This document shows, piece by piece, positions 811 through 60,296 of a stretch of DNA of 64,000 bases. A model generated the notes under the pieces. The model was not told the origin of the DNA, searched no databases, and worked only from the letters and a program-made list of their open reading frames with translations. The position numbers and the translations under genes were made by a program. Numbering within the stretch: position 1 is the stretch's first letter; every line of letters begins with the position of its first letter. Source of the stretch: Candidatus Omnitrophota bacterium (GTDB lineage Bacteria; Omnitrophota; Gorgyraeia; Gygaellales; Profunditerraquicolaceae); NCBI GenBank assembly GCA_003598025.1, contig QZKH01000002.1:206206-270205 (forward strand). The letters run 5' to 3'.

Positions 811-899
811 TTTGTGCATGGTTCATAGAGCGTAGTTCATGGATTTGATTAATTTATTCAGAACAGTGCTCTGTGCACGGTGAACCGTGAACTCTATAG
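811..899. repeat. Palindromic heptamer-repeat element (GTTCATR units forward, then reverse-complement units)
   Basis: Seen directly: gcatggttcatagagcgtagttcatgg ... ctctgtgcacggtgaaccgtgaactctatag. The two halves are inverted relative to each other and can form a long hairpin. Confidence 0.7.
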
Positions 900-902
900 A
901 TT

Positions 903-976
<74 letters not shown>

Positions 977-4747: not shown

Positions 4748-7651
4748 ATGTCTTGGAAAATTGAAATAAAAGATAAAGCCGAGGTATTTGATGCAATCGG
4801 AGAGGGTATTAAGCGGGATATCTTTGACCTGGGTATTTACGACGTTGAAGATGTAAAGTTTATACAGATATATATAATAAAGGACAGCATTACCCCTGAT
4901 GATGTAAAGAAAATATGCGAGGAAGTCCTTTTAGACAGCGTTTCACAAGAGTACTCTTTTTCAAAAACCAGCCAAATAAACAATAGTTTCGGCAATAATA
5001 CCCACGTAGTCGAAGTAGCCTATAATCCGGGAGTTATGGACCCGGTTGAAGAGTCCAGCCTTAAAGCAATCAGGGACATAGGAATATCCGCGGTAACTTC
5101 CATAAAAACAGCTAAAAAATATATCATCAAAGGCAGGCTTAATAACCATCAGCTGAAAATAATCTGTGATAAATTATTATACAATAAGCTTATACAGCAT
5201 ATAGTCCCGCGCATGGCAGAAGACAAAATCCCGGCGGAAGTAAAATATCAATTCAGATTAGTTACTGTCGGGTTGCTAAAAGCCGGTGATAAGAAATTAA
5301 TGCAGCTTAGTAAAAGCGGGCAATTGTTTCTTAATATAAATGAGATGCGCGCAATTAAGGATTACTTCAGGAAGCTTAAACGCGATCCTACGGATTGTGA
5401 GCTGGAGACCATAGCCCAGACCTGGTCAGAGCATTGCTGGCATAAAACGTTCAGGGGTAAGATAGATTATAAACAGTCAACTGTGAACGGTGCACTGTGC
5501 ACTAAAAAGATTGATAATCTCCTTAAATCAACGATAATGAAGGTCACCAAAGAGCTTAATAAGCCCTGGTGCGTATCGGTATTCAAGGATAACTCAGGTG
5601 TCATAAAGTTTGATGACGATTACAACATTTGTTTTAAAGTAGAGACCCATAACCATCCTTCAGCACTTGAGCCTTTCGGAGGGGCAAATACCGGTGTGGG
5701 CGGGGTAATCCGTGACCCGTTAGGCACCGGTATGGGCGCAAAACCTATCCTTAATACCGACGTTTTTTGTTTTGCCAGCCCGGATTATCCTTTCAGTAAA
5801 TTACCGGCAGGTACGTTGCATCCGAAAAGAGTGATGAAGGGGGTTGTTTCAGGAGTCAGGGATTATGGTAACAAAATGGGGATCCCCACTGTTAACGGCG
5901 CCATCCTTTTTCATGACAGATTTGTGGGCAATCCATTAGTTTATTGCGGCACCGTCGGAATAATGCCTAAAGACAAAGCATTTAAAAACCCGAGGAAGGG
6001 GGATTTAATCGTTGTAGTCGGCGGCAGGACGGGAAGAGACGGCATACACGGTGCGACATTCTCTTCCGGCGAGCTTACCCATGAGTCTGAAACAATATCA
6101 AGCGGGGCAGTCCAGATCGGTAATCCCATACAGGAAAAAAAGATGGTTGATACTATCCTTAAAGCAAGGGATAGGGGTTTGTATAGCGCGATAACTGATT
6201 GCGGAGCTGGCGGGCTATCCAGTGCGGTCGGGGAAATGGGCCAAGACCTGGGAGCGGTTGTATATTTGGATAAAGTCCCGCTTAAATATAGCGGCCTCTC
6301 TTATATGGAGATATGGATCTCGGAGTCGCAGGAAAGAATGGTCCTTTCGGTGCCGAAAGAGAATATAGCAGAATTGATAGATGTTTTTACTAAGGAGAAT
6401 GTGGAAGCAGCAGTTATCGGAGAGTTCCCGGGTGATGATAAATTAAGGCTTTATTATAACGATAAGAAAGTCTGTGAATTGGAAATGGGTTTTCTGCATG
6501 AAGGGCTGCCTAAAATAGAAAAGAAAGCCGTATTTAAACAGCATATTTACAGGGAACCGAAGCTTCGCTGTCCAAAGGATGTGACTAAAACTTTAAAACA
6601 GCTTCTTTCTCATTATGATATCTGTTCCAAGGAGTGGGTTATAAGGCAATATGACCATGAAGTCCAGGGGGGGTCTGTTGTTAAGCCTCTTATAGGCAAG
6701 TTTAACGACGGCCCGGCTGATGCTTCAGTAAACAGGCCTTTATTAAATTCAAACAGGGGCATTATTTTATCTAACGGGATCAATTTCAGGTTCGGCCTAA
6801 TCGACCCTTACTGGATGGCTGCTTCATGCATTGACGAGGCATTAAGGCAGATAATCGCAGTCGGCGGATCACTTGGGAGGGTCGCATTATTAGATAATTT
6901 TTGCTGGGGCAATCCTGATAAGCCTGATAGGCTTGGAGGTTTAGTGCGCGCTGCTTTAGGATGTTATGATATTGCAAAAGGTTTTGGCCTGCCTTTTATA
7001 TCGGGTAAAGACAGCCTGTATAACGAATTCACGGTCAATAAAAGATCCATCTCTATCCCGGGTACTTTACTGATTTCTGCCATTGCAGTCATGCAGGATG
7101 TATCAAAAGCCGTTTCGATGTACCTTAAGAAGCCGGGCAACCTCGTGTATATCGTAGGAGAAACTTTTAATGAGTTGGGAGGGTCACATTACTATGATAT
7201 TCTTGGTTATGTAGGCAATACCGTACCGAAGGTAGATGTTATTAAGGCAAAGAAAACATTTGTCGCTTTAAGTAAAGCTGCCTCTAGCGGCCTGGTAGAA
7301 TCTATCCATGATTGTTCTGACGGAGGCTTAGCCGTGAGTTGCGCCGAGATGTCTTTTGCTGGGAACCTTGGCATGAGAGTTTTCTTATCCGAGGCGCCGT
7401 TTAATAACAGCAAGGCAAGGCTTAGTAATGATTGTGTGCTTTTTTCCGAATCTAATTCCAGATTTATAGTAGAAGTGAGCCGCGAAAACCAAAAAGCTTT
7501 TGAAAAAACGCTTAAAGGCATTGTTTACGGCTTAATCGGATGCGTAACTAAAGAGGGTATATTGGAAGTCCATGGTTTAGACGGTAAAACATGTATCAGG
7601 GCATCTGTAGATGAGCTTAAGACGGCCTGGAAGGAGCCTTTGCAATGGTGA
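4748..7651 (+). CDS. purL: Phosphoribosylformylglycinamidine synthase, PurS-PurL fusion
   Basis: An N-terminal PurS-like segment of about 80 aa is followed by the PurL motif HNHPSALEPFGGANTGVGGVIRD and duplicated AIRS domains, for 967 aa in total. A separate purQ lies downstream. Confidence 0.9.
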   Translation: MSWKIEIKDKAEVFDAIGEGIKRDIFDLGIYDVEDVKFIQIYIIKDSITPDDVKKICEEVLLDSVSQEYSFSKTSQINNSFGNNTHVVEVAYNPGVMDPVEESSLKAIRDIGISAVTSIKTAKKYIIKGRLNNHQLKIICDKLLYNKLIQHIVPRMAEDKIPAEVKYQFRLVTVGLLKAGDKKLMQLSKSGQLFLNINEMRAIKDYFRKLKRDPTDCELETIAQTWSEHCWHKTFRGKIDYKQSTVNGALCTKKIDNLLKSTIMKVTKELNKPWCVSVFKDNSGVIKFDDDYNICFKVETHNHPSALEPFGGANTGVGGVIRDPLGTGMGAKPILNTDVFCFASPDYPFSKLPAGTLHPKRVMKGVVSGVRDYGNKMGIPTVNGAILFHDRFVGNPLVYCGTVGIMPKDKAFKNPRKGDLIVVVGGRTGRDGIHGATFSSGELTHESETISSGAVQIGNPIQEKKMVDTILKARDRGLYSAITDCGAGGLSSAVGEMGQDLGAVVYLDKVPLKYSGLSYMEIWISESQERMVLSVPKENIAELIDVFTKENVEAAVIGEFPGDDKLRLYYNDKKVCELEMGFLHEGLPKIEKKAVFKQHIYREPKLRCPKDVTKTLKQLLSHYDICSKEWVIRQYDHEVQGGSVVKPLIGKFNDGPADASVNRPLLNSNRGIILSNGINFRFGLIDPYWMAASCIDEALRQIIAVGGSLGRVALLDNFCWGNPDKPDRLGGLVRAALGCYDIAKGFGLPFISGKDSLYNEFTVNKRSISIPGTLLISAIAVMQDVSKAVSMYLKKPGNLVYIVGETFNELGGSHYYDILGYVGNTVPKVDVIKAKKTFVALSKAASSGLVESIHDCSDGGLAVSCAEMSFAGNLGMRVFLSEAPFNNSKARLSNDCVLFSESNSRFIVEVSRENQKAFEKTLKGIVYGLIGCVTKEGILEVHGLDGKTCIRASVDELKTAWKEPLQW

Positions 7652-8325: not shown

Positions 8326-9136
8326 AGTCTGCGTATTAAGAAGCGCAGGTACCAACTGTGATTTAGAAACCGCTGCTGCTTTTGGAAAAGCAGGCGCTGT
8401 ATGTGAATTAGTGCATATAAACGAGCTTATAGCAGGCAGCAGGAGCCTGCATAGTTTTCAGATATTGGCTATACCCGGCGGATTTACTTACGGTGATGAC
8501 CTGGGCGCAGGCAGGGTTTTTGCCAATGAGCTGAGGTTTAAACTGCGCAAGGATATAGAGAATTTTATCTCAGAAGGAAAGGTCATAATAGGCATATGCA
8601 ATGGTTTCCAGATATTAGTAAAAAGCGGGTTATTGGCAGGCGCTAAAGACTTTAAACAGCAGGCAAGCCTGATAATTAACGATAGCGCAAAATTTGAGGA
8701 TAGGTGGGTTTATTTAAAGCCGTCAGCTATCAGCCGTCAGCTATCAGCTAAATGCGTGTGGACGCGTAATTTACCTGACAAGATTTATCTGCCGGTTGCC
8801 CACGGGGAAGGGAAATTCATAACCAGAGACAAAAATGTGCTTGATAACCTTTTTAAGAGCGGGCAGGTTGTTCTGCAATATTGCGATGAAGATACGCAGT
8901 TGGCAGACTATCCTTATAATCCGAACGGTTCAATAGAGAATATCGCCGGTATATGCGATGAAACGGGAAGGATCTTCGGGCTTATGCCGCATCCGGAGCG
9001 CCATATTGATCTATTGCAGCATCCAAGGTCATGGACTGAAAATGCAGCAGGAGTAAAAGAAGGCGATGGTTTGCAGATATTCAGAAACGGTGTTGAATAT
9101 ATAATAAATGAGCTTAGAAAGGGGAAATTTGAATGA
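8312..9136 (+). CDS. purQ: Phosphoribosylformylglycinamidine synthase, glutaminase subunit
   Basis: The type-1 GATase nucleophile elbow GICNGFQ and the C-terminal motif PVAHGEGKF are present. An in-frame tandem-repeat insertion is noted separately. Confidence 0.85.
   Translation: MQKPKVCVLRSAGTNCDLETAAAFGKAGAVCELVHINELIAGSRSLHSFQILAIPGGFTYGDDLGAGRVFANELRFKLRKDIENFISEGKVIIGICNGFQILVKSGLLAGAKDFKQQASLIINDSAKFEDRWVYLKPSAISRQLSAKCVWTRNLPDKIYLPVAHGEGKFITRDKNVLDNLFKSGQVVLQYCDEDTQLADYPYNPNGSIENIAGICDETGRIFGLMPHPERHIDLLQHPRSWTENAAGVKEGDGLQIFRNGVEYIINELRKGKFE
8720..8747 (+). repeat. Exact 14-bp tandem duplication (ccgtcagctatcag x2; four cagcYNN heptamers) inside purQ coding sequence
   Basis: Seen directly. 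It encodes PSAISRQLSA between conserved PurQ blocks, and the frame is preserved downstream. Confidence 0.7.
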
Positions 9137-14066: not shown

Positions 14067-15356
14067 ATGCGAATATTAGTTATAGGTTCGGGAGGCAGAG
14101 AGCACGCGCTTGTCTGGAAAATAGCGCAGTCTAAATCGGTAGATAAGATTTTCTGTGCTCCCGGTAATGCGGGGATCGCGCAACAGGCAGAGTGTATCGA
14201 TATTAAACCGGATGACATAACCGGGTTGTTGGATTTTGCCAGGAGGCAGAATGTTGACCTTACAGTAGTCGGGCCGGAAGTGCCTTTGTCGTTAGGTATA
14301 GCTGATGAGTTCAAAAAATATAAGTTAAATATTTTCGGGCCGAATAAAGCTGCTGCACAATTGGAATCAAGCAAGGTATTTTCCAAACAGATGATGGCCA
14401 GGTATCAGGTCCCGACTGCAGAGTTCAGGGTTTTTCAGGACTTAGATGAAGCAAAAAGGTTTATTTCTGTCAGGGGAGCGCCCTGCGTAATCAAGGCAGA
14501 CGGCCTTGCGCAAGGCAAGGGAGTATTTGTCGCAAAGACGGTGGAAGAAGCAAACCAGGCAGCTTCTTTAATACTCAGGGATAAAATTTTCGGTAATTCC
14601 GGTAAGAAGATTATAGTCGAAGATTGCCTGGAAGGTCCGGAAGCATCCATATTGGTATTTACTGATTCAGAATATGTTATACCCCTTGCTTCAAGCCAGG
14701 ACCATAAAAGGATATTTGATAATGACCAGGGGCCTAATACAGGGGGTATGGGCGCGTATTCTCCTGCGCCAGTGGTTGATAAGGCAATGTTCGATCTTAT
14801 AATGCAGAAAGTAATATACAAGATGGTTAAAGGCTTATTAAATGAAGGTATCGAATACCAGGGTGTTTTATATGCCGGGATAATGATTACTAAAGATGGT
14901 CCAAAGACCCTGGAGTTCAATGTCCGTTTCGGGGACCCGGAGACACAGGCGATCCTGCCAAGGTTAAAAACCGACATTGTCGAGGTTATGTTGGCTTGCG
15001 CAAAAAAACAGCTTTCAAAAGTCAAGACATTGGATTGGGATAACCGTAGTTGTGTATGCGTTGTGTGTTCCTCAAAAGGTTACCCGGGGGCTTATGATAA
15101 AGGCAAAGAGATAAAAGGCATAGAAGAAGCTGAGAAAATAGAAGGGGTGAAGGTTTTTCATGCGGGAACAAAGTTTTTGCCGTCCACAGTCCACAGTCCA
15201 CAGTCCACTTGCGTTACTGATGGAGGAAGGGTGCTGGGTGTCAGCGGCTTAGGAACCACGATTAAAGAAGCGATAAATAAAACTTATCAGGGAGTCTCAA
15301 AAATTCACTTTGATGGTATGCATTACCGTAAAGATATTGCCTCAAAGGCGCTATAA
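14067..15356 (+). CDS. purD: Phosphoribosylamine-glycine ligase
   Basis: The N-terminus MRILVIGSGGREHAL matches GARS, and the ATP-grasp core is recognisable. An in-frame heptamer-repeat insertion near the C-terminus is noted separately. Confidence 0.9.
   Translation: MRILVIGSGGREHALVWKIAQSKSVDKIFCAPGNAGIAQQAECIDIKPDDITGLLDFARRQNVDLTVVGPEVPLSLGIADEFKKYKLNIFGPNKAAAQLESSKVFSKQMMARYQVPTAEFRVFQDLDEAKRFISVRGAPCVIKADGLAQGKGVFVAKTVEEANQAASLILRDKIFGNSGKKIIVEDCLEGPEASILVFTDSEYVIPLASSQDHKRIFDNDQGPNTGGMGAYSPAPVVDKAMFDLIMQKVIYKMVKGLLNEGIEYQGVLYAGIMITKDGPKTLEFNVRFGDPETQAILPRLKTDIVEVMLACAKKQLSKVKTLDWDNRSCVCVVCSSKGYPGAYDKGKEIKGIEEAEKIEGVKVFHAGTKFLPSTVHSPQSTCVTDGGRVLGVSGLGTTIKEAINKTYQGVSKIHFDGMHYRKDIASKAL
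15182..15209 (+). repeat. Four tandem heptamers (gtccaca x3 + gtccact) in-frame inside purD
   Basis: Seen directly. It encodes STVHSPQST within the usually compact PurD C-terminal loop. The unit is one mismatch from the intergenic GTTCACA heptamer family. Confidence 0.7.
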
Positions 15357-18618: not shown

Positions 18619-19101
18619 ATGAAGAAAACAAAAAGACTTATCCATTACAGGCCGACATGGGACGAATATTTTATGGAAGTCGCAAGCCTTGTCTCCAAGA
18701 GGGCGACTTGTTTAAGGAGGCGGGTTGGGGCAGTCCTGGTAAAAGGCAAGAGGATACTGGCTACCGGTTATAACGGCGCTCCTTCAGGCCTGAGTCATTG
18801 TCTGGATGTGGGTTGCTTGAGAGAAAAACTCGGCATACCCTCGGGCCAGCGCCATGAACTATGCCGCGGCCTGCATGCCGAACAGAACGTATTGGTCCAG
18901 GCAGCACTATATGGGATTAGCACTCAAAACAGCACCCTTTATGTGACCAATCAGCCTTGTATTATCTGCGCTAAAATGCTGATTAATGCCGGCATCAAAG
19001 AAATAGTTATCAGTGATGGTTATCCTGATGAGATGGCACAGGACTTCTTAAAGAAGGCCAAGGTGAAGGTAAGGAAGGTAAAGCCGGTTCATAGTTCATA
19101 G
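18619..19101 (+). CDS. dCMP/cytidine deaminase family (ComEB-like)
   Basis: The zinc motifs HAEQN and PCIICAKML are present. The last five codons and the stop are encoded by the heptamer repeat. Confidence 0.8.
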
Positions 19102-19152
19102 TTGATGGGAAAAACTGTGTCTATGAACCATGAACCATAAACTATGAACTAA
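19086..19152. repeat. Palindromic heptamer-repeat element
   Basis: Seen directly: ggttcatagttcatagttgatgg ... ctatgaaccatgaaccataaactatgaactaat. It overlaps the 3' end of the deaminase gene and abuts the nrdR start. Confidence 0.7.
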
Positions 19153-25475: not shown

Positions 25476-25567
25476 ATTAGTTCATGGTTCATAGTTCATA
25501 GATTAGTTCACAGTGCACAGTTCGCAGAGCACAGATTAGTTCATGGTTCACGGTTCATGGAGTACAG
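25476..25567. repeat. Heptamer-repeat array, forward orientation (about 13 units; attagttcaYRG sub-repeats)
   Basis: Seen directly between the helicase start and the downstream minus-strand ORF. Confidence 0.7.
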
Positions 25568-26380
25568 TTATTGAATTTGTTTTATAAATTTAATAAATCT
25601 TCTTGTATAGAGCGTGTAAAAGAATGAAGTGTCATTAACATATTGACCCTCGGAGATACGGCTTGAAGACTTATTCCAATATAGAACATTTGAAAACAAG
25701 CCTATATTTCTAAGTTCCCTTACCGCTGAATCAGTTAATTCAGGGGAGTATTGGAATTTCTGATGTGTTTCTGTTACGACATCTCTTATTATAATCTGCG
25801 GTAATGAAATTGTACTCTCTAATTGTTTATCATACTTTTCATAAATAGCATATAGTACATTTAATGCCACCTTGCTTAAATGCCTAATTAAATCAATAAA
25901 TCGTAATTTTTCATCTTCTGAAACATTCCTATCGGAAGCATTAAATAGGGCATTAACAAATATTTCTTGCTTGTCCATATATTCTGCGTTTAATGCTGTC
26001 TCCATTATTTTAATACAAAACAACTGTCCTTCTTGTGTATTAAAATATTCCTGCAGTTTATTTTTGAATTCGTCATTAAGGTTATTAATTCTATTTTCAA
26101 GATGCCCCAACATTTGAATTCGAGTTTGTTCTTTTATGGAATCTTGACATTTTTCTAATCCTTCTACCAAATCCCCCCATAGCGGGACCCTTTTTGCGAA
26201 GCTTTTTACAGCTCCCCAAAGTCCTGATTTTACGGCTAAGAGCCGGTTTGTTCTAATGTTTTCTTTATTCATCAGTTCGTTTACAAAGTTATTTGTAGAG
26301 ACTATGGCGTGAAGGAACAATAAATTTGGACCCCCCACCATTCTTTCTTTAGTTACTTTTAACCATGAACTATGAACCAT
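25568..26380 (-). CDS. Hypothetical protein, AT-rich, no recognised domain
   Basis: A 270-aa ORF on the minus strand lies in a visibly AT-rich segment bracketed by heptamer arrays of opposite orientation. The start codon lies inside the right-hand array. Confidence 0.5.
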   Translation of the reverse strand: MVHSSWLKVTKERMVGGPNLLFLHAIVSTNNFVNELMNKENIRTNRLLAVKSGLWGAVKSFAKRVPLWGDLVEGLEKCQDSIKEQTRIQMLGHLENRINNLNDEFKNKLQEYFNTQEGQLFCIKIMETALNAEYMDKQEIFVNALFNASDRNVSEDEKLRFIDLIRHLSKVALNVLYAIYEKYDKQLESTISLPQIIIRDVVTETHQKFQYSPELTDSAVRELRNIGLFSNVLYWNKSSSRISEGQYVNDTSFFYTLYTRRFIKFIKQIQ

Positions 26381-26393
26381 CAACTATGAACTA
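26361..26393. repeat. Heptamer-repeat array, reverse orientation (aaccatgaactatgaaccatcaactatgaactaa)
   Basis: Seen directly. It is the inverted partner of the 25476..25567 array. Confidence 0.7.
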
Positions 26394-26397
26394 ACCT

Positions 26398-26570
26398 ATC
26401 CCACAGCTATAATCCCGGGATAAGTTCGGTCCTATAACTTACGTTCTACGCCTACGGCGTATCCGTAAGTTATGACCTCACAAATCCCACAGCTATAATC
26501 CCGGGATAAGTTCGCGCATACAATTTACGTTCGCCGCCTTTGGCGCCTCCGTAAATTGTGCGCTCACTTA
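26398..26570 (+). ncRNA. Two tandem 86-bp structured units (candidate small RNA genes or recombination sites). Each has a conserved 31-nt leader containing TATAAT and the palindrome ATCCCGGGAT, followed by a hairpin whose stems co-vary.
   Basis: The leader atcccacagctataatcccgggataagttcg is identical in both units. The unit A stem pairs ATAACTTACG with CGTAAGTTAT, and the unit B stem pairs ACAATTTACG with CGTAAATTGT. These differ by two compensated base pairs (T-A to C-G and C-G to T-A). The strand is not determined. Confidence 0.4.
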
Positions 26571-47180: not shown

Positions 47181-47270
47181 TTAGTTGACAGTTCACAGAG
47201 CACAGATTAGTTCACAGTTCACTGTTCACGGATCACAGAACATGGCTGTGAACTAATCTATGAACTAAAA
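47181..47270. repeat. Palindromic heptamer-repeat element (GTTCACR units)
   Basis: Forward units gttcacagagcacagattagttcacagttcactgttcacgg are followed by reverse units ctgtgaactaatctatgaactaa. Confidence 0.7.
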
Positions 47271-55769: not shown

Positions 55770-57819
55770 ACAAGTCAAAAAAATACTATTCATCACCCTA
55801 AGCAATATCGGTGATAATTTTCTATCCCTTCCGGTATTAGATACCTTAAAAGAATGTTTCCCCCTTGCCCAGATACACGTAATGGCAGCGCTCCGGCCTA
55901 AAGAGATATTTGAGAATAACCCCCTGATAAGTAAAGTCATCGCGTACGATAAGCACTCCCGCTTAAGCGAGAAGATGAAATTGTTCGGCCAGCTCCAGAG
56001 AGAAAGATACGATATCGTCATTGATTTGCGCAACAGCCTCTTTGGCGCGCTCCTTCCTGCGCGCTACAGGATTTCGCCGTTTCTTATCGTGCCTAAAGAC
56101 ATAAAGCATATGAATTCCAGGCATCTTTATAAAGTAAAAAAGATCCTGCTTAAGATAAAGAAAGATTTATCCGTAAGCATGAAGGAGACAGTGTTTTTCT
56201 TGAACCCCGAGGATAAGGCGCGCATAAAGAAGATCCTTTTAGACCACGGACTTTTTTTCCGTAACGACGTAGTCGTGGTCTCAGCCGGCGCGCGCAGTTA
56301 TATCAAGCGCTGGCCCAAGGAAAAATTCACCGAGCTCATTACTTTAATGATAAAAGAATTCGGCGTAAAGGTGGTCTTAGTCGGAGATAAGGACGATGAG
56401 CCGGTCTCTGAATATATAGCCAGCAACTGCCCGTATCCTGTGTTGAATTTAACGGGCCAAACCAATATCGCCCAGCTTGCGTACCTTTTAAAGCGGGCAA
56501 GGTTTTTAATAACTAATGACAGCGCGCCTCTTCATATCGTAAGTTACCTGAACGTGCCGGTAGTGGCAATATTCGGGCCGACCAACGAAGAAAAATACGG
56601 TCCCTGGTCGGATAACTATTCGCTGGCAAAAAAAGATATCTCCTGCCGGCCGTGCGAGAAAGCAGATTGTTCCCTCGGCTCGATAAACTGCATGAACATG
56701 ATAAGGGCTGACGAGGTATTACGCCTTGCGCGCAAGATGATAGTTGACAAGTTTGAGCCGCAAGATAAAAAGATAGACCATGATTTTAAGCGCATCCTCA
56801 TTGTGCGCACTGACAGGATCGGCGATGTGGTCTTATCTACCCCGGTGATTAAGAACCTGCGCAATAGATTCCCTTCAGCATATATTGCCATGGTGGTTTC
56901 TCCGCAGGCAAAGGAGATAATTGACAATAACCCCTATCTTGATGAAGTGATACTCTATGATAAGGACAAAGAGCATAAAGGATGGCAGCAGAGCATGGAA
57001 TTTGCCGGGCTTCTTGCCAAGAAAAAGTTTGATATAGCAATAATACTGCATCCGACCAACCGCATGCACTTATTGACATTCCTGGCAAAGATACCGGTCA
57101 GGGTAGGCTATGACAAGAAAATGGGATTTTTGTTGAGTAAAAAGATAAAGCATACAAAACAATTAGGGCAAAAACACGAGCTTGAGTATAATCTGGATTT
57201 ATTAAAGGCAATCGGCATAAATGCCGAAGATAAAGAATTAATTTTTAATATCCGCCCGGAAGTTGAGATATGGGCGCGCCATAAATTAATGAATTTGGGC
57301 GTAAAAGACAACGAGAAGGTAATAGCAATACATCCCTCAGCAAGTTGCCCTTCTAAGATCTGGCCGCATGAGAGATTTGCACAACTTGCAGATAAGCTTA
57401 TCGAGAAATACAGCTTTAAAGTGCTCATTGTGGCTGCTGCAAAGGATAATTATCTGGCTGAAAAAGTGATGAAAGAGATGTATAATGAAGCCATAAACTT
57501 AAGCGGAGAGACTTCCGTCAGCCAATTAGCCGCAATATTAAAGAGAAGCGTTTTATTCATATCCAATGATTCCGGGCCCGTGCATGTTGCTAGCGCGGTA
57601 AACACTCCGGTTATCTCCATTTTTGGCAGGAACCAGGCAGGGCTTAGCCCCAAGCGCTGGGCGCCGGTAGGCAAAAAAGATAAGGTCCTGCATAAAGAAG
57701 TCGGCTGCATCCAATGCCTTGCGCATAACTGTAAAAAGAATTTTGCCTGTTTAAGGGCGATAGGTGTGGAGGATGTGATTAGAGCGGTGGAAGAGGTATT
57801 AGCGAAGCAGCTGTTATAA
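55756..57819 (+). CDS. Tandem double GT9 heptosyltransferase (two complete GT9 modules in one polypeptide)
   Basis: The two halves carry the motifs NDSAPLHIVS and NDSGPVHVASA, each with its own N-terminal ILxxxxxxIGD block. Confidence 0.75.
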   Translation: MPKDKQVKKILFITLSNIGDNFLSLPVLDTLKECFPLAQIHVMAALRPKEIFENNPLISKVIAYDKHSRLSEKMKLFGQLQRERYDIVIDLRNSLFGALLPARYRISPFLIVPKDIKHMNSRHLYKVKKILLKIKKDLSVSMKETVFFLNPEDKARIKKILLDHGLFFRNDVVVVSAGARSYIKRWPKEKFTELITLMIKEFGVKVVLVGDKDDEPVSEYIASNCPYPVLNLTGQTNIAQLAYLLKRARFLITNDSAPLHIVSYLNVPVVAIFGPTNEEKYGPWSDNYSLAKKDISCRPCEKADCSLGSINCMNMIRADEVLRLARKMIVDKFEPQDKKIDHDFKRILIVRTDRIGDVVLSTPVIKNLRNRFPSAYIAMVVSPQAKEIIDNNPYLDEVILYDKDKEHKGWQQSMEFAGLLAKKKFDIAIILHPTNRMHLLTFLAKIPVRVGYDKKMGFLLSKKIKHTKQLGQKHELEYNLDLLKAIGINAEDKELIFNIRPEVEIWARHKLMNLGVKDNEKVIAIHPSASCPSKIWPHERFAQLADKLIEKYSFKVLIVAAAKDNYLAEKVMKEMYNEAINLSGETSVSQLAAILKRSVLFISNDSGPVHVASAVNTPVISIFGRNQAGLSPKRWAPVGKKDKVLHKEVGCIQCLAHNCKKNFACLRAIGVEDVIRAVEEVLAKQLL

Positions 57820-57892
57820 TTAGTTCATAGTTCATAGTTAATGGTTCATAGTTCATAGATTAGTTCACGGTTCACAGAGCATAGTTCATAGA
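57819..57892. repeat. Heptamer-repeat array, forward orientation (about 10 GTTCATA units)
   Basis: Seen directly after the GT9 stop. Confidence 0.7.
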
Positions 57893-57953
57893 AATATCAA
57901 GAAGAGGTTAGAGGGGCCTGGTCCTTAAAATTAGTTCCTATAAGAAATGGGCT

Positions 57954-58271
57954 TTGGAGGAAATTATGGATAATAAAAAGATATATAATAATGACTTGAT
58001 AGTGTTTTCGATTTTGGGGAGCTTATGCCTTTTGCCGTCTTTATTAATGCTATACTATTTTTTTGTTTCAGAATCCAGCCAACCGCCGTATCTATTAAGA
58101 ATGCTTTTTGAGATTATGCTTTCATCAAAAACCTATGCCCCTATGTGGTCAGAGGTTGATAAAGATCTTTTACTATACCGAGCTATTATTTGGATGGCTT
58201 TAGGTATCGGATTGATAGGTTTTGGAATTTATAAATATAAAAAGGAATCGGTTATTAAGACTAGTTTATAG
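57954..58271 (+). CDS. Small AT-rich hypothetical membrane protein (2 TM)
   Basis: A 105-aa ORF lies between two forward heptamer arrays. Its stop codon is supplied by the next repeat. Confidence 0.4.
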   Translation: MEEIMDNKKIYNNDLIVFSILGSLCLLPSLLMLYYFFVSESSQPPYLLRMLFEIMLSSKTYAPMWSEVDKDLLLYRAIIWMALGIGLIGFGIYKYKKESVIKTSL

Positions 58272-58383
58272 TTGATGGTTCATAGATCATAGAAATAGAT
58301 AAAGTAGGTAGTCACAAAGACACACGACACAAGGACACAAAAATTAGTTCACGGTTCACAGTACACGGAGCACAGTTAATGCA
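58263..58383. repeat. Left terminal inverted repeat of cassette (heptamer units + about 75-nt core aaagtaggtagtcacaaagacacacgacacaaggacacaaaaa)
   Basis: By-eye alignment with the reverse complement of 60092..60248 shows the about 75-nt core differing at only 3 positions. The flanks are more diverged. Confidence 0.75.
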
Positions 58384-58423
58384 CTAGATTCGTTTGAGAA
58401 CTGTTCAGTTGGAGGAATTTAAC

Positions 58424-59104
58424 ATGTATACGATTATAAAAAAAATACTAGCGAAGATAGTTAATAATAAAGATCTAATTGTAACTATTGTAGCTGTTGT
58501 TGCACTTGTAGTTTCCGTTAGGGGATGTTGCGTATCTACGGATGCTTATAGACTATCTAAAGAATCTAAAAATATAGCAAAGGATGCTTTAGATACGGGA
58601 AAATATCAGTTTATCCAAATTAATCGCCCTTATGTATTGATCTCTCCAAAGAAATTCAATGATGGCTCATTTTGGAAAATTCAGCAAAAAAGCAATCACG
58701 TCGAAATTATAGTTAAATACGAAATAAAGAACGTGGGTAACGTTGCGGCAAAAAATATTGAATTACCTGATAATTTAATAATTGGACAAGAGACAAAACT
58801 CAAGAGAGATGCACCTGTTTCTTATAAGAAAATGAGCGAGGTGACATTAGGACCCGGAGATTTTTATGAACTTGTGTGTAGTTTTGTGTTAGATTATTCA
58901 GACGAAGAGGCAGCCAAAAATAATTATGAGTATATTGTTTCGGATTCAAGTGAAGGCCTAACTTTGTTGTTAGCGGTAACTTATACAAACGAGATAGATG
59001 GATTTATGGAATATAGGACAATAGTTGAAAACAGAATTCATAATGATAATGCTTTAATTATCAAATCTGAGATGCTTAATCTCAATACTAAAGCTAAGAA
59101 TTGA
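58424..59104 (+). CDS. Cassette gene A: single-pass membrane protein with unknown extracytoplasmic domain
   Basis: A GGAGG RBS lies 9 nt before the ATG at 58424, and the listed ORF starts at 58394. The TM helix is LIVTIVAVVALVVSV. The region is visibly AT-rich. Confidence 0.5.
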   Translation: MYTIIKKILAKIVNNKDLIVTIVAVVALVVSVRGCCVSTDAYRLSKESKNIAKDALDTGKYQFIQINRPYVLISPKKFNDGSFWKIQQKSNHVEIIVKYEIKNVGNVAAKNIELPDNLIIGQETKLKRDAPVSYKKMSEVTLGPGDFYELVCSFVLDYSDEEAAKNNYEYIVSDSSEGLTLLLAVTYTNEIDGFMEYRTIVENRIHNDNALIIKSEMLNLNTKAKN

Positions 59105-59182
59105 ATTGCAAATAATATAGTTAGAGAGTCGTCTTTAAATAGAAAACACTGTTTTGTATTTAAGAAGCTCAAAAGAAGATCT

Positions 59183-59992
59183 ATGAAAAATTTAGACTTG
59201 GAGAAAAATGCAATAAAAGGGATTCGAGAAGCGATAGCTTGGCATACTATAATAGTGGATGTTTCCCTCGCCAATACTTCTCTTGGGTGGGGGACGGGAA
59301 CATTATTAGAGATAAATAGCAGAAAGTTTATATTAACATGCGCACATGTAGTTAAAAAAGAATATAAAAATAAAGATTTGAGGTTTATTTATCGCTCAGG
59401 AAATTCTTTAAGAGATGCTGATAAAGATATTATTAAAGAAGCTCCGCTTAATGATCTAGTTGAAGCAGATGATAAAGCGTATTCTTTAGAAATTCCAACA
59501 ATTAATAGGTTTTATTCTGATTTTACTGATGATTTAGTCATGCTGGAATTAGAGCCAACAGCAAAAACAATAAGTAATTTTGTTTTTTTTGATGCCTCTA
59601 TAGGGAGAATCATATCTCCTGAAATTGGCATGGCGACTTATATGCTTGGTTTTTCTGTTGAACTAACAAGAGAAATTAATAAATATGGTGTTGGAAATTT
59701 CCATTATTTCTTGGGATCAAAAATCATAGATTTTGCTGCTTCTGACCGAAGCATTGATTATAATAGGCAATTTTTTATCGATTATAGTATTGATGATCAC
59801 TCAGTTGACCTGCATGGTTTGAGCGGCTGTGGAGTATGGACGCGCAAGCCATCTGGAAAGAATAATTTATGGTCTCCAAATCTTTATCTTGTTGGAGTCC
59901 AGGATGCTTTTATCACAGTAACTAGAAAATTTCAGCCTATCCGAGCGACTAGGGGAGAAAGAATAACAGATTTAATTAACAAAACAATATAA
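59183..59992 (+). CDS. Cassette gene B: trypsin-fold (chymotrypsin-like) serine protease candidate
   Basis: The catalytic-triad contexts appear in canonical order: His in LTCAHVV, Asp in DDLVMLELE (compare trypsin DIMLIKL) and Ser in HGLSGCGVW (compare GDSGGP). The region is AT-rich. Confidence 0.5.
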   Translation: MKNLDLEKNAIKGIREAIAWHTIIVDVSLANTSLGWGTGTLLEINSRKFILTCAHVVKKEYKNKDLRFIYRSGNSLRDADKDIIKEAPLNDLVEADDKAYSLEIPTINRFYSDFTDDLVMLELEPTAKTISNFVFFDASIGRIISPEIGMATYMLGFSVELTREINKYGVGNFHYFLGSKIIDFAASDRSIDYNRQFFIDYSIDDHSVDLHGLSGCGVWTRKPSGKNNLWSPNLYLVGVQDAFITVTRKFQPIRATRGERITDLINKTI

Positions 59993-60091
59993 ATAATAAA
60001 CACTTTATGATATGTGTGTAAAGTGGATTTTGGTTTTCTCAATAAGCTATCAGCTCCAGGCTATATTTATCGTGATATACATATAGTTTTT

Positions 60092-60248
60092 CTGTGACCT
60101 TGTGTCTTTGTGACCAACTACTCTAGTTATTACTGTGCTCCGTGAACCGTGATCTGTGAACTCAAGCTTTTTGTGTCCTTGTGTCGTGTGACTTTGTGAC
60201 TACCTACTTTAGCTATTTCTATGAACTATGAACCATCAACCATGAACC
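60092..60248. repeat. Right terminal inverted repeat of cassette (reverse-complement heptamer units + core + an extra partial copy of the gtgtc/gtgac motif)
   Basis: See the left TIR. Its outer end is ctatgaactatgaaccatcaaccatgaacc. Confidence 0.75.
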
Positions 60249-60296
60249 TTTTTTCCCTTTGCTTTCCCTCATTTTTGTGCTAAAATTAACAGTTCA

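What the first reader, a model, noticed from the sequence alone, without database searches (positions are those of the whole stretch)
58263..60248. AT-rich two-gene cassette (membrane protein + trypsin-fold protease) bounded by long terminal inverted repeats, inserted inside the LPS core/Kdo locus
A segment of about 1.7 kb, visibly much more AT-rich than its neighbours, carries two same-strand genes with their own RBSs. The first encodes a single-pass membrane protein with an unrecognisable ectodomain. The second has His/Asp/Ser contexts typical of chymotrypsin-fold serine proteases (TCAHVV, DDLVMLELE, GLSGCGVW). The segment is bracketed by inverted repeats of about 120 to 160 nt whose roughly 75-nt core (aaagtaggtagtcacaaagacacacgacacaaggacacaaaaa) differs at only 3 positions between the two ends. 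The outermost parts of these repeats are heptamer (GTTCATR) units. It interrupts an otherwise coherent heptosyltransferase-hldA-kdsBA-kdsD block. There is no transposase or integrase. The architecture therefore resembles a non-autonomous TIR element or a site-specifically captured cassette. A membrane sensor paired with a protease is a plausible abortive-infection/defence pair or a toxin pair, and I do not recognise it as a described system.
Basis: partly seen in the sequence, partly recalled or inferred. Interest (0 to 1): 0.85.

Follow-up and report, generated by a model that had tools for sequence, protein, structure and literature searches.

The report
Orphan-gene islet inside a split repeat palindrome
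A 2.4-kb AT-rich islet of three orphan genes, one a genuine trypsin-fold protease, sits in a variable spot of an Omnitrophota LPS gene cluster; its "terminal inverted repeats" are the two arms of the genome's own common heptamer-repeat palindrome, and the two genes are not a conserved pair.

Summary
Window 57820-60250 is 30-36% GC against 42-48% around it. It carries same-strand orphan genes and is closed by an inverted repeat (75/80 nt, about 115 nt with one indel).

Related Omnitrophota keep the same gene order, usually with only 50-550 bp at this site, and none carries these genes. So this is an insertion, placed between the heptosyltransferase stop codon and a conserved promoter.

The repeats are not private to the element. 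GTTCAYR heptamer arrays are a dispersed palindromic repeat of this genome. Four compact hairpins occur elsewhere in the window. A second AT-rich gene (25.5-26.4 kb) is bracketed in the same way. There is no target-site duplication, no further copy of the 43-nt core, and no such repeat around homologues elsewhere.

The protease is real:
- His55, Asp117 and Ser214 are invariant.
- It resembles protease domains of anti-phage systems.

It belongs to a large family of stand-alone proteins of 250-300 aa. It never neighboured the membrane-protein family in about 90 sampled contexts.

Verdict: an accessory islet in a hot spot. The split-palindrome architecture is the interesting part. The "sensor plus protease system" reading is not supported.

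The parts
57819..57908 (+). Outer left arm (LO). GTTCATR and GTTCACR heptamer arrays start on the last base of the heptosyltransferase stop codon, followed by a degenerate copy of the start of the core.
   Evidence: (D1, I3, I4: 30 nt, 93% complementary to 60218-60247).
57966..58271 (+). Small orphan ORF of about 101 aa counted from the ATG (GGAGG at 57956-57960). Two hydrophobic segments. Its last three codons lie inside the inner left arm.
   Evidence: Only sub-threshold family hits.
58264..58381 (+). Inner left arm (LI): heptamer array A, a 43-nt core (58301-58343, itself a GACACAA-like short repeat), then heptamer array C.
   Evidence: (I1, I5).
58424..59104 (+). Orphan type-II membrane protein of 226 aa. 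It has a short basic N-terminus, one TM helix (about residues 17-32) and a conserved ectodomain (QFIQINRPY ... KNVGNVAAKN ... LGPGD ... YRT). The ectodomain is probably an Ig/CARDB-like beta sandwich.
   Evidence: Only weak TRAP_beta and DUF7507 hits. No PDB sequence match. The fold assignment is inference from motifs.
59183..59992 (+). Stand-alone cytoplasmic trypsin-fold serine protease of 269 aa. Catalytic residues His55 (TCAHVV), Asp117 (DDLVMLE) and Ser214 (GLSGCG). N- and C-terminal helices, no signal peptide.
60089..60247 (-). Right end. The arm 60130-60247 is the inverted copy of LI (A-core-C), and an extra degenerate core lies at 60089-60126. Read on the + strand it is a tandem doublet with an 86-nt period.
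   Evidence: (D2, I1, I2, I5).
60259..60286 (+). Conserved promoter of the GSU2086-hldA-kdsB operon (TTGCTT, 16 nt, TGTGCTAAAAT). It marks the right-hand limit of the insertion.
   Evidence: The same motif lies directly upstream of the orthologous gene in 13 other genomes.
25478..26393 (.). Second example of the same architecture. + arrays at 25478-25560 and a - array at 26364-26393 bracket an AT-rich (28-35% GC) minus-strand orphan gene (25568-26383, 271 aa).
   Evidence: (22 nt at 95%, 25 nt at 88%).
19087..19149 (.). Example of the compact form of the repeat: + and - GTTCAYR arrays around a 12-nt loop between two genes. Others are at 814-892, 2580-2658 and 47210-47270.
   Evidence: The four fold with z-scores of -2.5, -5.5, -4.4 and -4.2.

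Best explanation
The feature is a small horizontally acquired islet at 57820-60250. It carries three unrelated orphan accessory genes. It lies between the stop codon of the double heptosyltransferase gene and the conserved promoter of the GSU2086-hldA-kdsB operon. That intergenic site is empty in most related Omnitrophota and holds other cargo in a few.

The "terminal inverted repeats" are the two arms of this genome's own dispersed intergenic palindrome, made of GTTCAYR heptamer arrays with ends TTAGTTCA...TGAACTAA. Normally the arms are adjacent and form a hairpin. Here, and at 25.5-26.4 kb, the arms are separated by AT-rich cargo. The most likely history (inferred) is that foreign DNA was inserted into, or recombined through, such a palindrome. 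The enzyme would act in trans, or repair of a broken palindrome would capture the DNA. The repeats therefore belong to the host, not to the cargo.

The protease and the membrane protein are independent passengers. The protease is a catalytically intact, cytoplasmic, single-domain trypsin-fold enzyme. It is of the type used as an effector or activator domain in Lamassu, Avs, Hachiman and retron-XI anti-phage systems. Its most likely role (inferred) is a self-contained conflict or abortive-infection-type protease. It is not the output of the neighbouring membrane protein.
For: Insertion:
- Synteny is conserved, with gaps of 48-550 bp in most relatives.
- Four relatives carry unrelated inserts of 1.3-2.7 kb: RadC, XRE and pilin-like genes in L011 and L023, and orphan genes in L024 and L039. 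A fifth (L028) has a 0.7-kb gap holding one orphan ORF.
- None carries the islet genes.
- The promoter is conserved immediately right of the repeat.
- GC drops to 0.29-0.37. Homologues are likewise AT-poor outliers in several other genomes.

Host-repeat origin of the arms:
- The GTTCAYR arrays found in the 64-kb window, apart from one inside purL, form convergent +/- sets. Four are compact hairpins and two are split by low-GC cargo.
- Heptamer arrays with genome-specific units are common in related genomes.
- There are no long flanking repeats around homologues elsewhere.
- The core is not found in the fetched loci or in the metagenome scan.

Independence of the two genes:
- There is no co-occurrence in any sampled context.
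- At least 45 of those loci hold 900 nt or more upstream of the protease gene (counted over 64 of the 80 metagenome loci).

Protease:
- AlphaFold2 model at pLDDT 93.
- 701 Foldseek PDB hits at E<=0.001, the top 50 listed all trypsin-fold proteases.
- His55, Asp117 and Ser214 invariant in 49 sequences.
- 25 of 49 members hit Pfam Trypsin_2.
- 35 of 49 hit the N-terminal part of PADLOC LmuA, best E 3.5e-13. A few hit PDC-S45 and RT-Protease_XI.
- Neighbours of close relatives include a PLD nuclease, Mrr, DUF1780, a caspase-domain protein, AbiEii, PDDEXK, XRE regulators, a LexA-methyltransferase fusion and a 9.3-kb circular element with RepO, IstB and a serine recombinase.
Against: - The inner left arm and the right arm share a 43-nt non-heptamer core at 42/43 identity, and that core was found nowhere else. 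This is what true element termini would look like. It requires a recent inverted duplication under my reading.
- Only 64 kb of this genome could be examined, so copy number in the whole genome is unknown.
- The nearest relatives available share only 72% or less protein identity, so the empty sites are not from close strains.
- Only two split palindromes were seen. No split pair with low-GC cargo was found in other genomes.
- One close protease relative (L097) has an upstream single-pass membrane protein with weak similarity to the membrane-protein family (hhalign E 0.002, probability 13%). A loose functional link is therefore not strictly excluded.
- No function was tested experimentally.
Confidence: 0.6

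Rival explanations
1. It is a non-autonomous transposable element with about 115-bp terminal inverted repeats (58264-60247). It carries two passenger genes and is moved in trans by a transposase encoded elsewhere. The compact heptamer hairpins would be its MITE-like, cargo-free relatives.
For: The arms match at 75/80 plus 27/31 positions and share a unique core. The compact palindromes have defined ends, TTAGTTCA...TGAACTAA. A second cargo is bracketed in the same way. The site is empty in relatives.
Against: There is no target-site duplication at either candidate boundary. The core has no second copy in the window, the fetched loci or the metagenome scan. No transposase was seen in the islet. 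Homologous genes elsewhere lack such repeats. The arms of the second cassette share only the generic heptamers.
Confidence: 0.17
2. It is a two-gene defence or toxin module. The membrane protein senses an envelope or phage signal and controls, or is cleaved by, the cytoplasmic protease. This would be analogous to the protease/pro-effector pairs of antiviral systems.
For: The two genes are adjacent on the same strand, 78 nt apart. The protease resembles defence-system protease domains. Trypsin-like proteases that activate a separately encoded upstream pro-effector are documented (PMC12799240). One relative has a weakly similar membrane protein upstream.
Against: The two families never co-occur in about 90 sampled contexts. 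The membrane protein has only about 15 cytoplasmic residues to contact a cytoplasmic protease. Stand-alone proteins of 250-300 aa dominate the best-scoring part of a family with more than 1,600 cluster representatives at E<=1e-10. The membrane protein has no PADLOC hit.
Confidence: 0.1
3. The long inverted repeat is functional as nucleic-acid structure. Either it is an invertible segment that switches the two genes on and off, or it forms a long-range RNA stem that RNase III cuts to separate the islet transcript from the LPS operon.
For: The arms are 94% complementary over 80 nt, 1.8 kb apart, in one transcriptional orientation and downstream of an operon with no terminator-like site between them. 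The compact forms of the repeat fold significantly better than shuffled sequence.
Against: No recombinase gene is adjacent. Only one orientation is visible in a single assembly. Nothing beyond the complementarity itself supports this reading.
Confidence: 0.08
4. It is an assembly artefact. A low-GC fragment from another population was joined into the contig through shared repeats.
For: The source is a metagenome-assembled genome. The joints lie in repetitive sequence and GC changes abruptly.
Against: The flanking repeats are this genome's own heptamer type on both sides. The arms differ at 5 of 80 positions, so they offer no long identical k-mers. The same pattern occurs twice in the window.
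Confidence: 0.04

Closest known systems
Trypsin-like protease domains of anti-phage systems: protease-type LmuA of Lamassu, Avs/AVAST, Hachiman HamMAB, and retron/DRT type XI RT-protease
   Same: Chymotrypsin fold with a His-Asp-Ser triad. There is direct profile similarity: PADLOC LmuA PDLC03855 matches 35 of 49 family members (best E 3.5e-13), and RT-Protease_XI matches 3. The protein is cytoplasmic and sits in defence- or MGE-like neighbourhoods.
   Different: Here the protease is a free-standing 269-aa protein. It matches only positions 12-196 of the 425-position LmuA model. No SMC-like LmuB, STAND ATPase, helicase or reverse transcriptase is nearby. There is no MBL-fold pro-nuclease upstream, which is the partner described in PMC12799240.
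HtrA/DegS/DegP and V8-type bacterial S1 proteases (Pfam Trypsin_2, PF13365)
   Different: There is no signal peptide, PDZ domain or membrane anchor. Sequence identity is 12-18%. The window protein itself scores below the Pfam threshold (14.8 against 27.6 bits).
REP/BIME-type intergenic palindromic repeats as insertion hot spots (for example, IS elements that insert into REP loops; from my own knowledge)
   Same: Short dispersed intergenic palindromes that fold as hairpins. Foreign DNA is found between the two arms in two places.
   Different: The arms are tandem heptamer arrays, not a fixed REP consensus. The cargo has no transposase. No RAYT-like gene was looked for or seen.
Heptamer tandem arrays of other bacteria: cyanobacterial STRR (from my own knowledge) and the TAACTGA repeats of Beggiatoaceae (PMC4679880)
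   Same: Tandem 7-nt units, 2-6 or more copies, abundant, genome-specific and mostly intergenic.
   Different: The TAACTGA sets are almost all direct repeats just upstream of start codons. Here the arrays come in convergent inverted pairs that form hairpins, and they sometimes lie in coding linkers.
MITEs and cargo-carrying non-autonomous TIR transposons
   Same: Long terminal inverted repeats around genes, no transposase, and an empty site in relatives.
   Different: There is no target-site duplication, no additional copies were found, and the repeats are made of a host-wide simple repeat.

Membership tests
Chymotrypsin-fold (PA clan) serine protease | Double beta-barrel trypsin fold | tested here: met
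Chymotrypsin-fold (PA clan) serine protease | His, Asp and Ser catalytic residues in that order and conserved, with a G-x-S-G motif around the serine | tested here: met
   His55, Asp117, Gly212, Ser214 and Gly215 are invariant in 49 sequences.
Pfam Trypsin_2 (PF13365) | Score above the curated gathering threshold | tested here: inconclusive
   The window protein scores 14.8 bits against a 27.6-bit cut-off. 25 of 49 family members match at E<0.01, best 1.8e-7.
Lamassu (protease-type LmuA) | Full-length LmuA (effector plus C-terminal domain) with SMC-like LmuB, with or without LmuC, in the same operon | tested here: not met
   Only positions 12-196 of the 425-position LmuA model are matched. The neighbours are LPS genes and two small membrane proteins.
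Nuclease-protease pair (Tuck et al. 2025, PMC12799240) | MBL-fold pro-nuclease encoded next to (typically upstream of) a protease that is fused to an immune sensor | tested here: not met
   The upstream gene is a TM protein with no MBL or nuclease hit. The protease is not fused to anything.
Two-gene defence or toxin system (membrane protein plus protease) | Conserved co-occurrence of the two families across genomes | tested here: not met
   No co-occurrence in 6 protease contexts, 4 membrane-protein contexts and 80 metagenome loci. tblastn with all 18 membrane-family members found nothing.
TIR transposon / MITE | Terminal inverted repeats | tested here: met
   75/80 positions match, then 27/31 after a 3-nt indel.
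TIR transposon / MITE | Target-site duplication flanking the repeats | tested here: not met
   The flanks are AAGACTA|GTTTATAG ... CATGAAC|CTTTTTT for the inner pair and TATAATTA|GTTCATAG ... CATGAAC|CTTTTTT for the outer pair. No direct repeat is present.
TIR transposon / MITE | Multiple copies in the genome, or in other genomes | tested here: inconclusive
   The core occurs only at this locus in the 64-kb window. It has 0 hits in the JGI metagenome contigs and 0 in the 96 loci held at the time. The rest of this genome could not be searched.
REP/BIME-like dispersed intergenic palindromes | Many dispersed copies, intergenic, forming hairpins | tested here: met
   Six +/- GTTCAYR sets occur in 64 kb. 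Four are compact hairpins with z-scores from -2.5 to -5.5.
REP/BIME-like dispersed intergenic palindromes | An associated RAYT (Y1 transposase) gene in the genome | not tested
   Only 64 kb of the genome was available, and its ORFs were not all scanned.
Integron gene cassette | An attC site after each cassette and an intI integrase with attI nearby | not tested
   No specific attC or IntI search was run. The three islet ORFs and the flanking genes that were scanned gave no recombinase family hit. The repeats are convergent arms around the cargo, not one palindromic site per cassette.

The most novel reading that the evidence does not exclude
The heptamer-array palindromes of this Omnitrophota genome may be genuine gene-capture sites. 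Promoterless AT-rich cassettes would be inserted into the hairpin centre by a trans-acting enzyme or by a palindrome-breakage repair route that has not been described. This would be a functional analogue of integron attC sites or REP-targeted insertion, without a linked recombinase. The stand-alone protease would then be a single-gene abortive-infection module delivered in this way.
Probability: 0.15. Interest if true: 0.7.

Novelty: new variant of a known kind. Interest (0 to 1): 0.38.

Why it matters
The result removes a tempting false lead. This is not a new "membrane sensor plus protease" defence system bounded by its own TIRs. Two modest leads remain.

1. The protease belongs to a large, uncharacterised family of free-standing cytoplasmic trypsin-fold proteases: more than 1,600 cluster representatives at E<=1e-10. 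These are sequence relatives of the protease modules of Lamassu, Avs and retron-type defence systems. They sit in defence- or MGE-like neighbourhoods. How such an unregulated-looking protease is kept silent is an open question.

2. Omnitrophota and neighbouring phyla carry abundant heptamer arrays with genome-specific units. In this genome the arrays form palindromes that twice bracket foreign genes. That pattern could point to a hot-spot or capture mechanism in a phylum with no cultured representatives that I know of.

Tried and rejected
- Exact-sequence look-ups of the window's protease and GSU2086-family protein found nothing. The identical proteins surfaced only through the homology searches.
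- The first structure model, built from 12 sequences, was unusable (pLDDT 51). It was replaced by a 49-sequence model.
- A profile search of PDB sequences with the 12-sequence alignment gave only noise. The membrane-protein profile gave no PDB hit at all.
- The AFDB50 fold library was unavailable.
- No relatives of the protease were found in IMG/VR viral contigs, in GenBank phages or in PLSDB plasmids.
- The Rfam scan of the whole window found only one tRNA, so no known RNA or intron explains the repeats.
- The promoter and terminator consensus scan of the islet did not exceed shuffled controls.
- The small ORFs next to protease homologues (94, 90, 65, 143 and 46 aa) are unrelated to each other and to the window ORFs.
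- I considered an integron-cassette reading and a Lamassu reading and rejected both (see the membership tests).
- The literature search found no paper combining Omnitrophota with heptamer repeats.
Full report
**What is there**

The window comes from a Candidatus Omnitrophota metagenome-assembled genome. The identical proteins are annotated "C4533_01575/01580, Candidatus Omnitrophota bacterium".

Between 57820 and 60250 the GC content falls to 0.29-0.37, from 0.42-0.48 on either side. The segment contains three + strand ORFs:
- a small two-TM ORF at 57966-58271;
- a 226-aa single-pass membrane protein at 58424-59104;
- a 269-aa protein at 59183-59992.

The left neighbour is a double GT9 heptosyltransferase that ends at 57819. 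To the right come a GSU2086-family (deoxyhypusine-synthase-like) gene, a PfkB kinase (hldA-like), a KdsB-type gene and a KdsA-type gene.

**The inverted repeat is real**

- Arms 58264-58343 and 60168-60247 are 80 nt long and 94% complementary. After a 3-nt indel, a further 31 nt match at 87%.
- The 43-nt core occurs exactly twice in the window, with none expected by chance.
- The right end is a tandem doublet with an 86-nt period (D2).
- A third, degenerate left-arm copy starts on the heptosyltransferase stop codon at 57819-57908.
- No direct repeat flanks either candidate boundary.

**It is an insertion at a variable site**

A scan of species-representative genomes with the GSU2086-family protein returned 80 loci. 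In about 30 Omnitrophota loci the order hepT1-hepT2-GSU2086-hldA-kdsB is conserved.

The hepT2-to-GSU2086 spacer is 48-550 bp in most of them. Four loci hold inserts of 1.3-2.7 kb with other genes: RadC, XRE and pilin-like genes in L011 and L023, and orphan genes in L024 and L039. L028 has a 0.7-kb spacer holding one orphan ORF. Several spacers also contain GC-rich palindromic repeats. None of the loci contains any of the three islet genes.

All of them share a promoter-like motif, TTGMTT-(16-17 nt)-TGnTAnAAT, directly upstream of the GSU2086 gene. In the window this motif lies at 60259-60286, about 12 nt beyond the end of the right arm. The islet therefore sits exactly between a stop codon and the next operon's promoter.

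**The arms are made of a host-wide repeat**

Tandem heptamers of the GTTCAYR type occur throughout the window. When mapped with strand, they form convergent +/- sets.
- Four are compact hairpins, at 814-892, 2580-2658, 19087-19149 and 47210-47270. They fold with z-scores of -2.5, -5.5, -4.4 and -4.2.
- Two are split. One is the present locus. The other is 25478-25560(+) with 26364-26393(-), which brackets an AT-rich (0.28-0.35 GC) minus-strand orphan gene.
- The only unpaired GTTCAYR-type array lies inside purL.

Heptamer arrays with other, genome-specific units are common in the related Omnitrophota and Nitrospirota loci, including inside coding linkers.

By contrast, the homologues of the two islet genes in other genomes have no comparable flanking inverted repeats. 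The 43-nt core was found neither in the 96 loci held at the time nor in the JGI metagenome contigs. That collection did not return this contig either, so the negative result is weak.

I conclude that the repeats belong to the host genome's repeat family rather than travelling with the genes. The shared unique core means the inner left arm and the right arm are recent copies of each other. This is the strongest point in favour of the rival TIR-element reading, and I cannot exclude that reading without the rest of the genome.

**The protease**

The close subfamily has about 55 members in the first database. His55, Asp117, Gly212, Ser214 and Gly215 are invariant in a 49-sequence alignment.

The window protein itself is below the Pfam Trypsin_2 threshold, but 25 of 49 relatives match it. 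Against PADLOC, 35 of 49 match the N-terminal part of a LmuA model (best E 3.5e-13), 8 match candidate PDC-S45 and 3 match RT-Protease_XI.

An exhaustive profile search finds 4,394 cluster representatives at E<=1e-3, 1,682 at E<=1e-10 and 90 at E<=1e-30. Nearly all of the 150 best are full-length matches in proteins of 250-300 aa. The stand-alone form is therefore a large uncharacterised family. The protein has no signal peptide, and the model begins and ends with a helix.

**The membrane protein**

Nineteen relatives share a basic N-terminus, one TM helix and a conserved ectodomain. Only weak TRAP_beta, DUF7507 and Fn3-like hits were found, there was no PDB sequence match, and there was no meaningful PADLOC hit. 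A beta-sandwich ectodomain is my inference from the motifs.

**The two genes are not a pair**

Protease homologues were examined in six independent contexts:
- a 9.3-kb circular element with RepO, IstB and a serine recombinase;
- next to a LexA-S24-methyltransferase gene;
- among AbiEii, PDDEXK and XRE genes;
- after radA;
- next to a DnaB-like gene;
- on short contigs.

Membrane-protein homologues were examined in four contexts, next to ORF6N, Bro-N, DUF559, PIN and resolvase genes. Eighty further metagenome loci encoding protease relatives were also fetched.

tblastn with the window proteins and with all 18 membrane-family members found no locus that contains both families. At least 45 of the loci have 900 nt or more of upstream sequence (counted over 64 of the 80).

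Both genes are low-GC outliers in several host loci. Neighbours of close protease relatives include a PLD nuclease, Mrr, DUF1780, DUF4238, a caspase-domain protein and cpYpsA.

The only hint of a link is a 167-aa membrane protein upstream of one relative, with weak similarity to the family (E 0.002, probability 13%).

**How it most likely works**

Shown:
- an insertion at a hot spot;
- arms derived from a dispersed host palindrome;
- a catalytically intact trypsin-fold protease related to defence-system protease domains;
- independent distribution of the two genes.

Inferred:
- foreign DNA entered through, or at the centre of, a heptamer palindrome;
- the genes are read through from the upstream LPS operon or from weak internal promoters (no convincing promoter or terminator was found);
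- the protease acts alone as a conflict or abortive-infection-type effector.

**Comparison with known systems**

[quoted passage not shown] Here there is neither a sensor fusion nor a nuclease partner, so the protein is not a member of those systems.

The heptamer arrays resemble the STRR and TAACTGA repeats in unit size and abundance (PMC4679880). They differ in forming convergent palindromes.

**Verdict**

The "dedicated TIR element" part is unproven and less likely than a host-repeat origin. The "sensor-protease system" part is not supported. Interest is moderate. The split-palindrome architecture and the free-standing protease family are worth a follow-up on the complete genome.

Noticed in passing
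window 25478-26557: A second AT-rich single-gene cassette: a 271-aa minus-strand orphan at 25568-26383, with no Pfam hit and a weak match to phrog_2232. It is bracketed by convergent GTTCAYR arrays. Immediately after it comes an 86-nt tandem repeat of 1.9 copies (26398-26557) that contains internal palindromes.
   Followed up: partly
L014 8887-8920, L022 8854-8889, L025 8856-8895 and 5497-5538, L026 8403-8438, L028 8219-8256, L042 8887-8914: At the same position in six Omnitrophota species, the linker between the two GT9 domains of the double heptosyltransferase, there is a heptamer array with a different unit in each genome (GCCACAA, CCGTACC, GAAGACA, GAGCCAR, GAACCTA, AACCCYW). The L025 array reads in frame as linker. 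The L025 unit recurs in what looks like coding sequence of a glycosyltransferase gene. This suggests genome-specific heptamer arrays are tolerated, or propagated, in coding linkers.
   Followed up: partly
window 5468-5502: A GTTCAYR-type array lies inside the purL-like ORF (4748-7651), where it reads ...KQSTVNGALCTKK.... Other heptamer arrays with different units lie at 15182-15208 (GTCCACA, 4 copies) and 8718-8750 (AGCCGTC / TCAGCTA), apparently within ORFs.
   Followed up: partly
L012 253-694, L015 9608-10001, L035 9535-10001, L037 1314-1815, L034 9328-9664, L026 9455-10001: In several relatives the same hepT2-GSU2086 spacer holds 200-450-nt GC-rich, highly structured repeat elements. They are shared between different genomes and occur in both orientations (for example GCGTCTGCCTTG...CCCGCAGGGACGCTTG...). 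They look like MITE-like or structured-RNA-like elements. A shorter shared motif, ...TTAATGTCCTGAGCGAAGCGAAGGAT, occurs in L015, L033, L036 and L040.
   Followed up: no
L001 1-19630: This contig is a head-to-tail concatemer with a 9,272-9,276-nt period. It represents a small circular element carrying XRE, RepO, IstB-like, serine recombinase, MORN and pentapeptide-repeat genes plus a protease homologue. One repeat unit differs in the pentapeptide-repeat gene.
   Followed up: partly
L098 7327-7510, L079 8020-8186, L115 1592-1779: In other genomes, convergent heptamer arrays with reverse-complementary units lie 95-120 nt apart. The loop in L098 may contain a tRNA-like sequence.
   Followed up: no
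window 814-976: A compact GTTCAYR palindrome (814-892) lies immediately upstream of the only tRNA gene in the window (903-976).
   Followed up: no
L102 1199-2959: A close protease relative (39% identity) is directly followed by a 586-aa protein with a caspase (Peptidase_C14) domain. This gives two protease types side by side.
   Followed up: no
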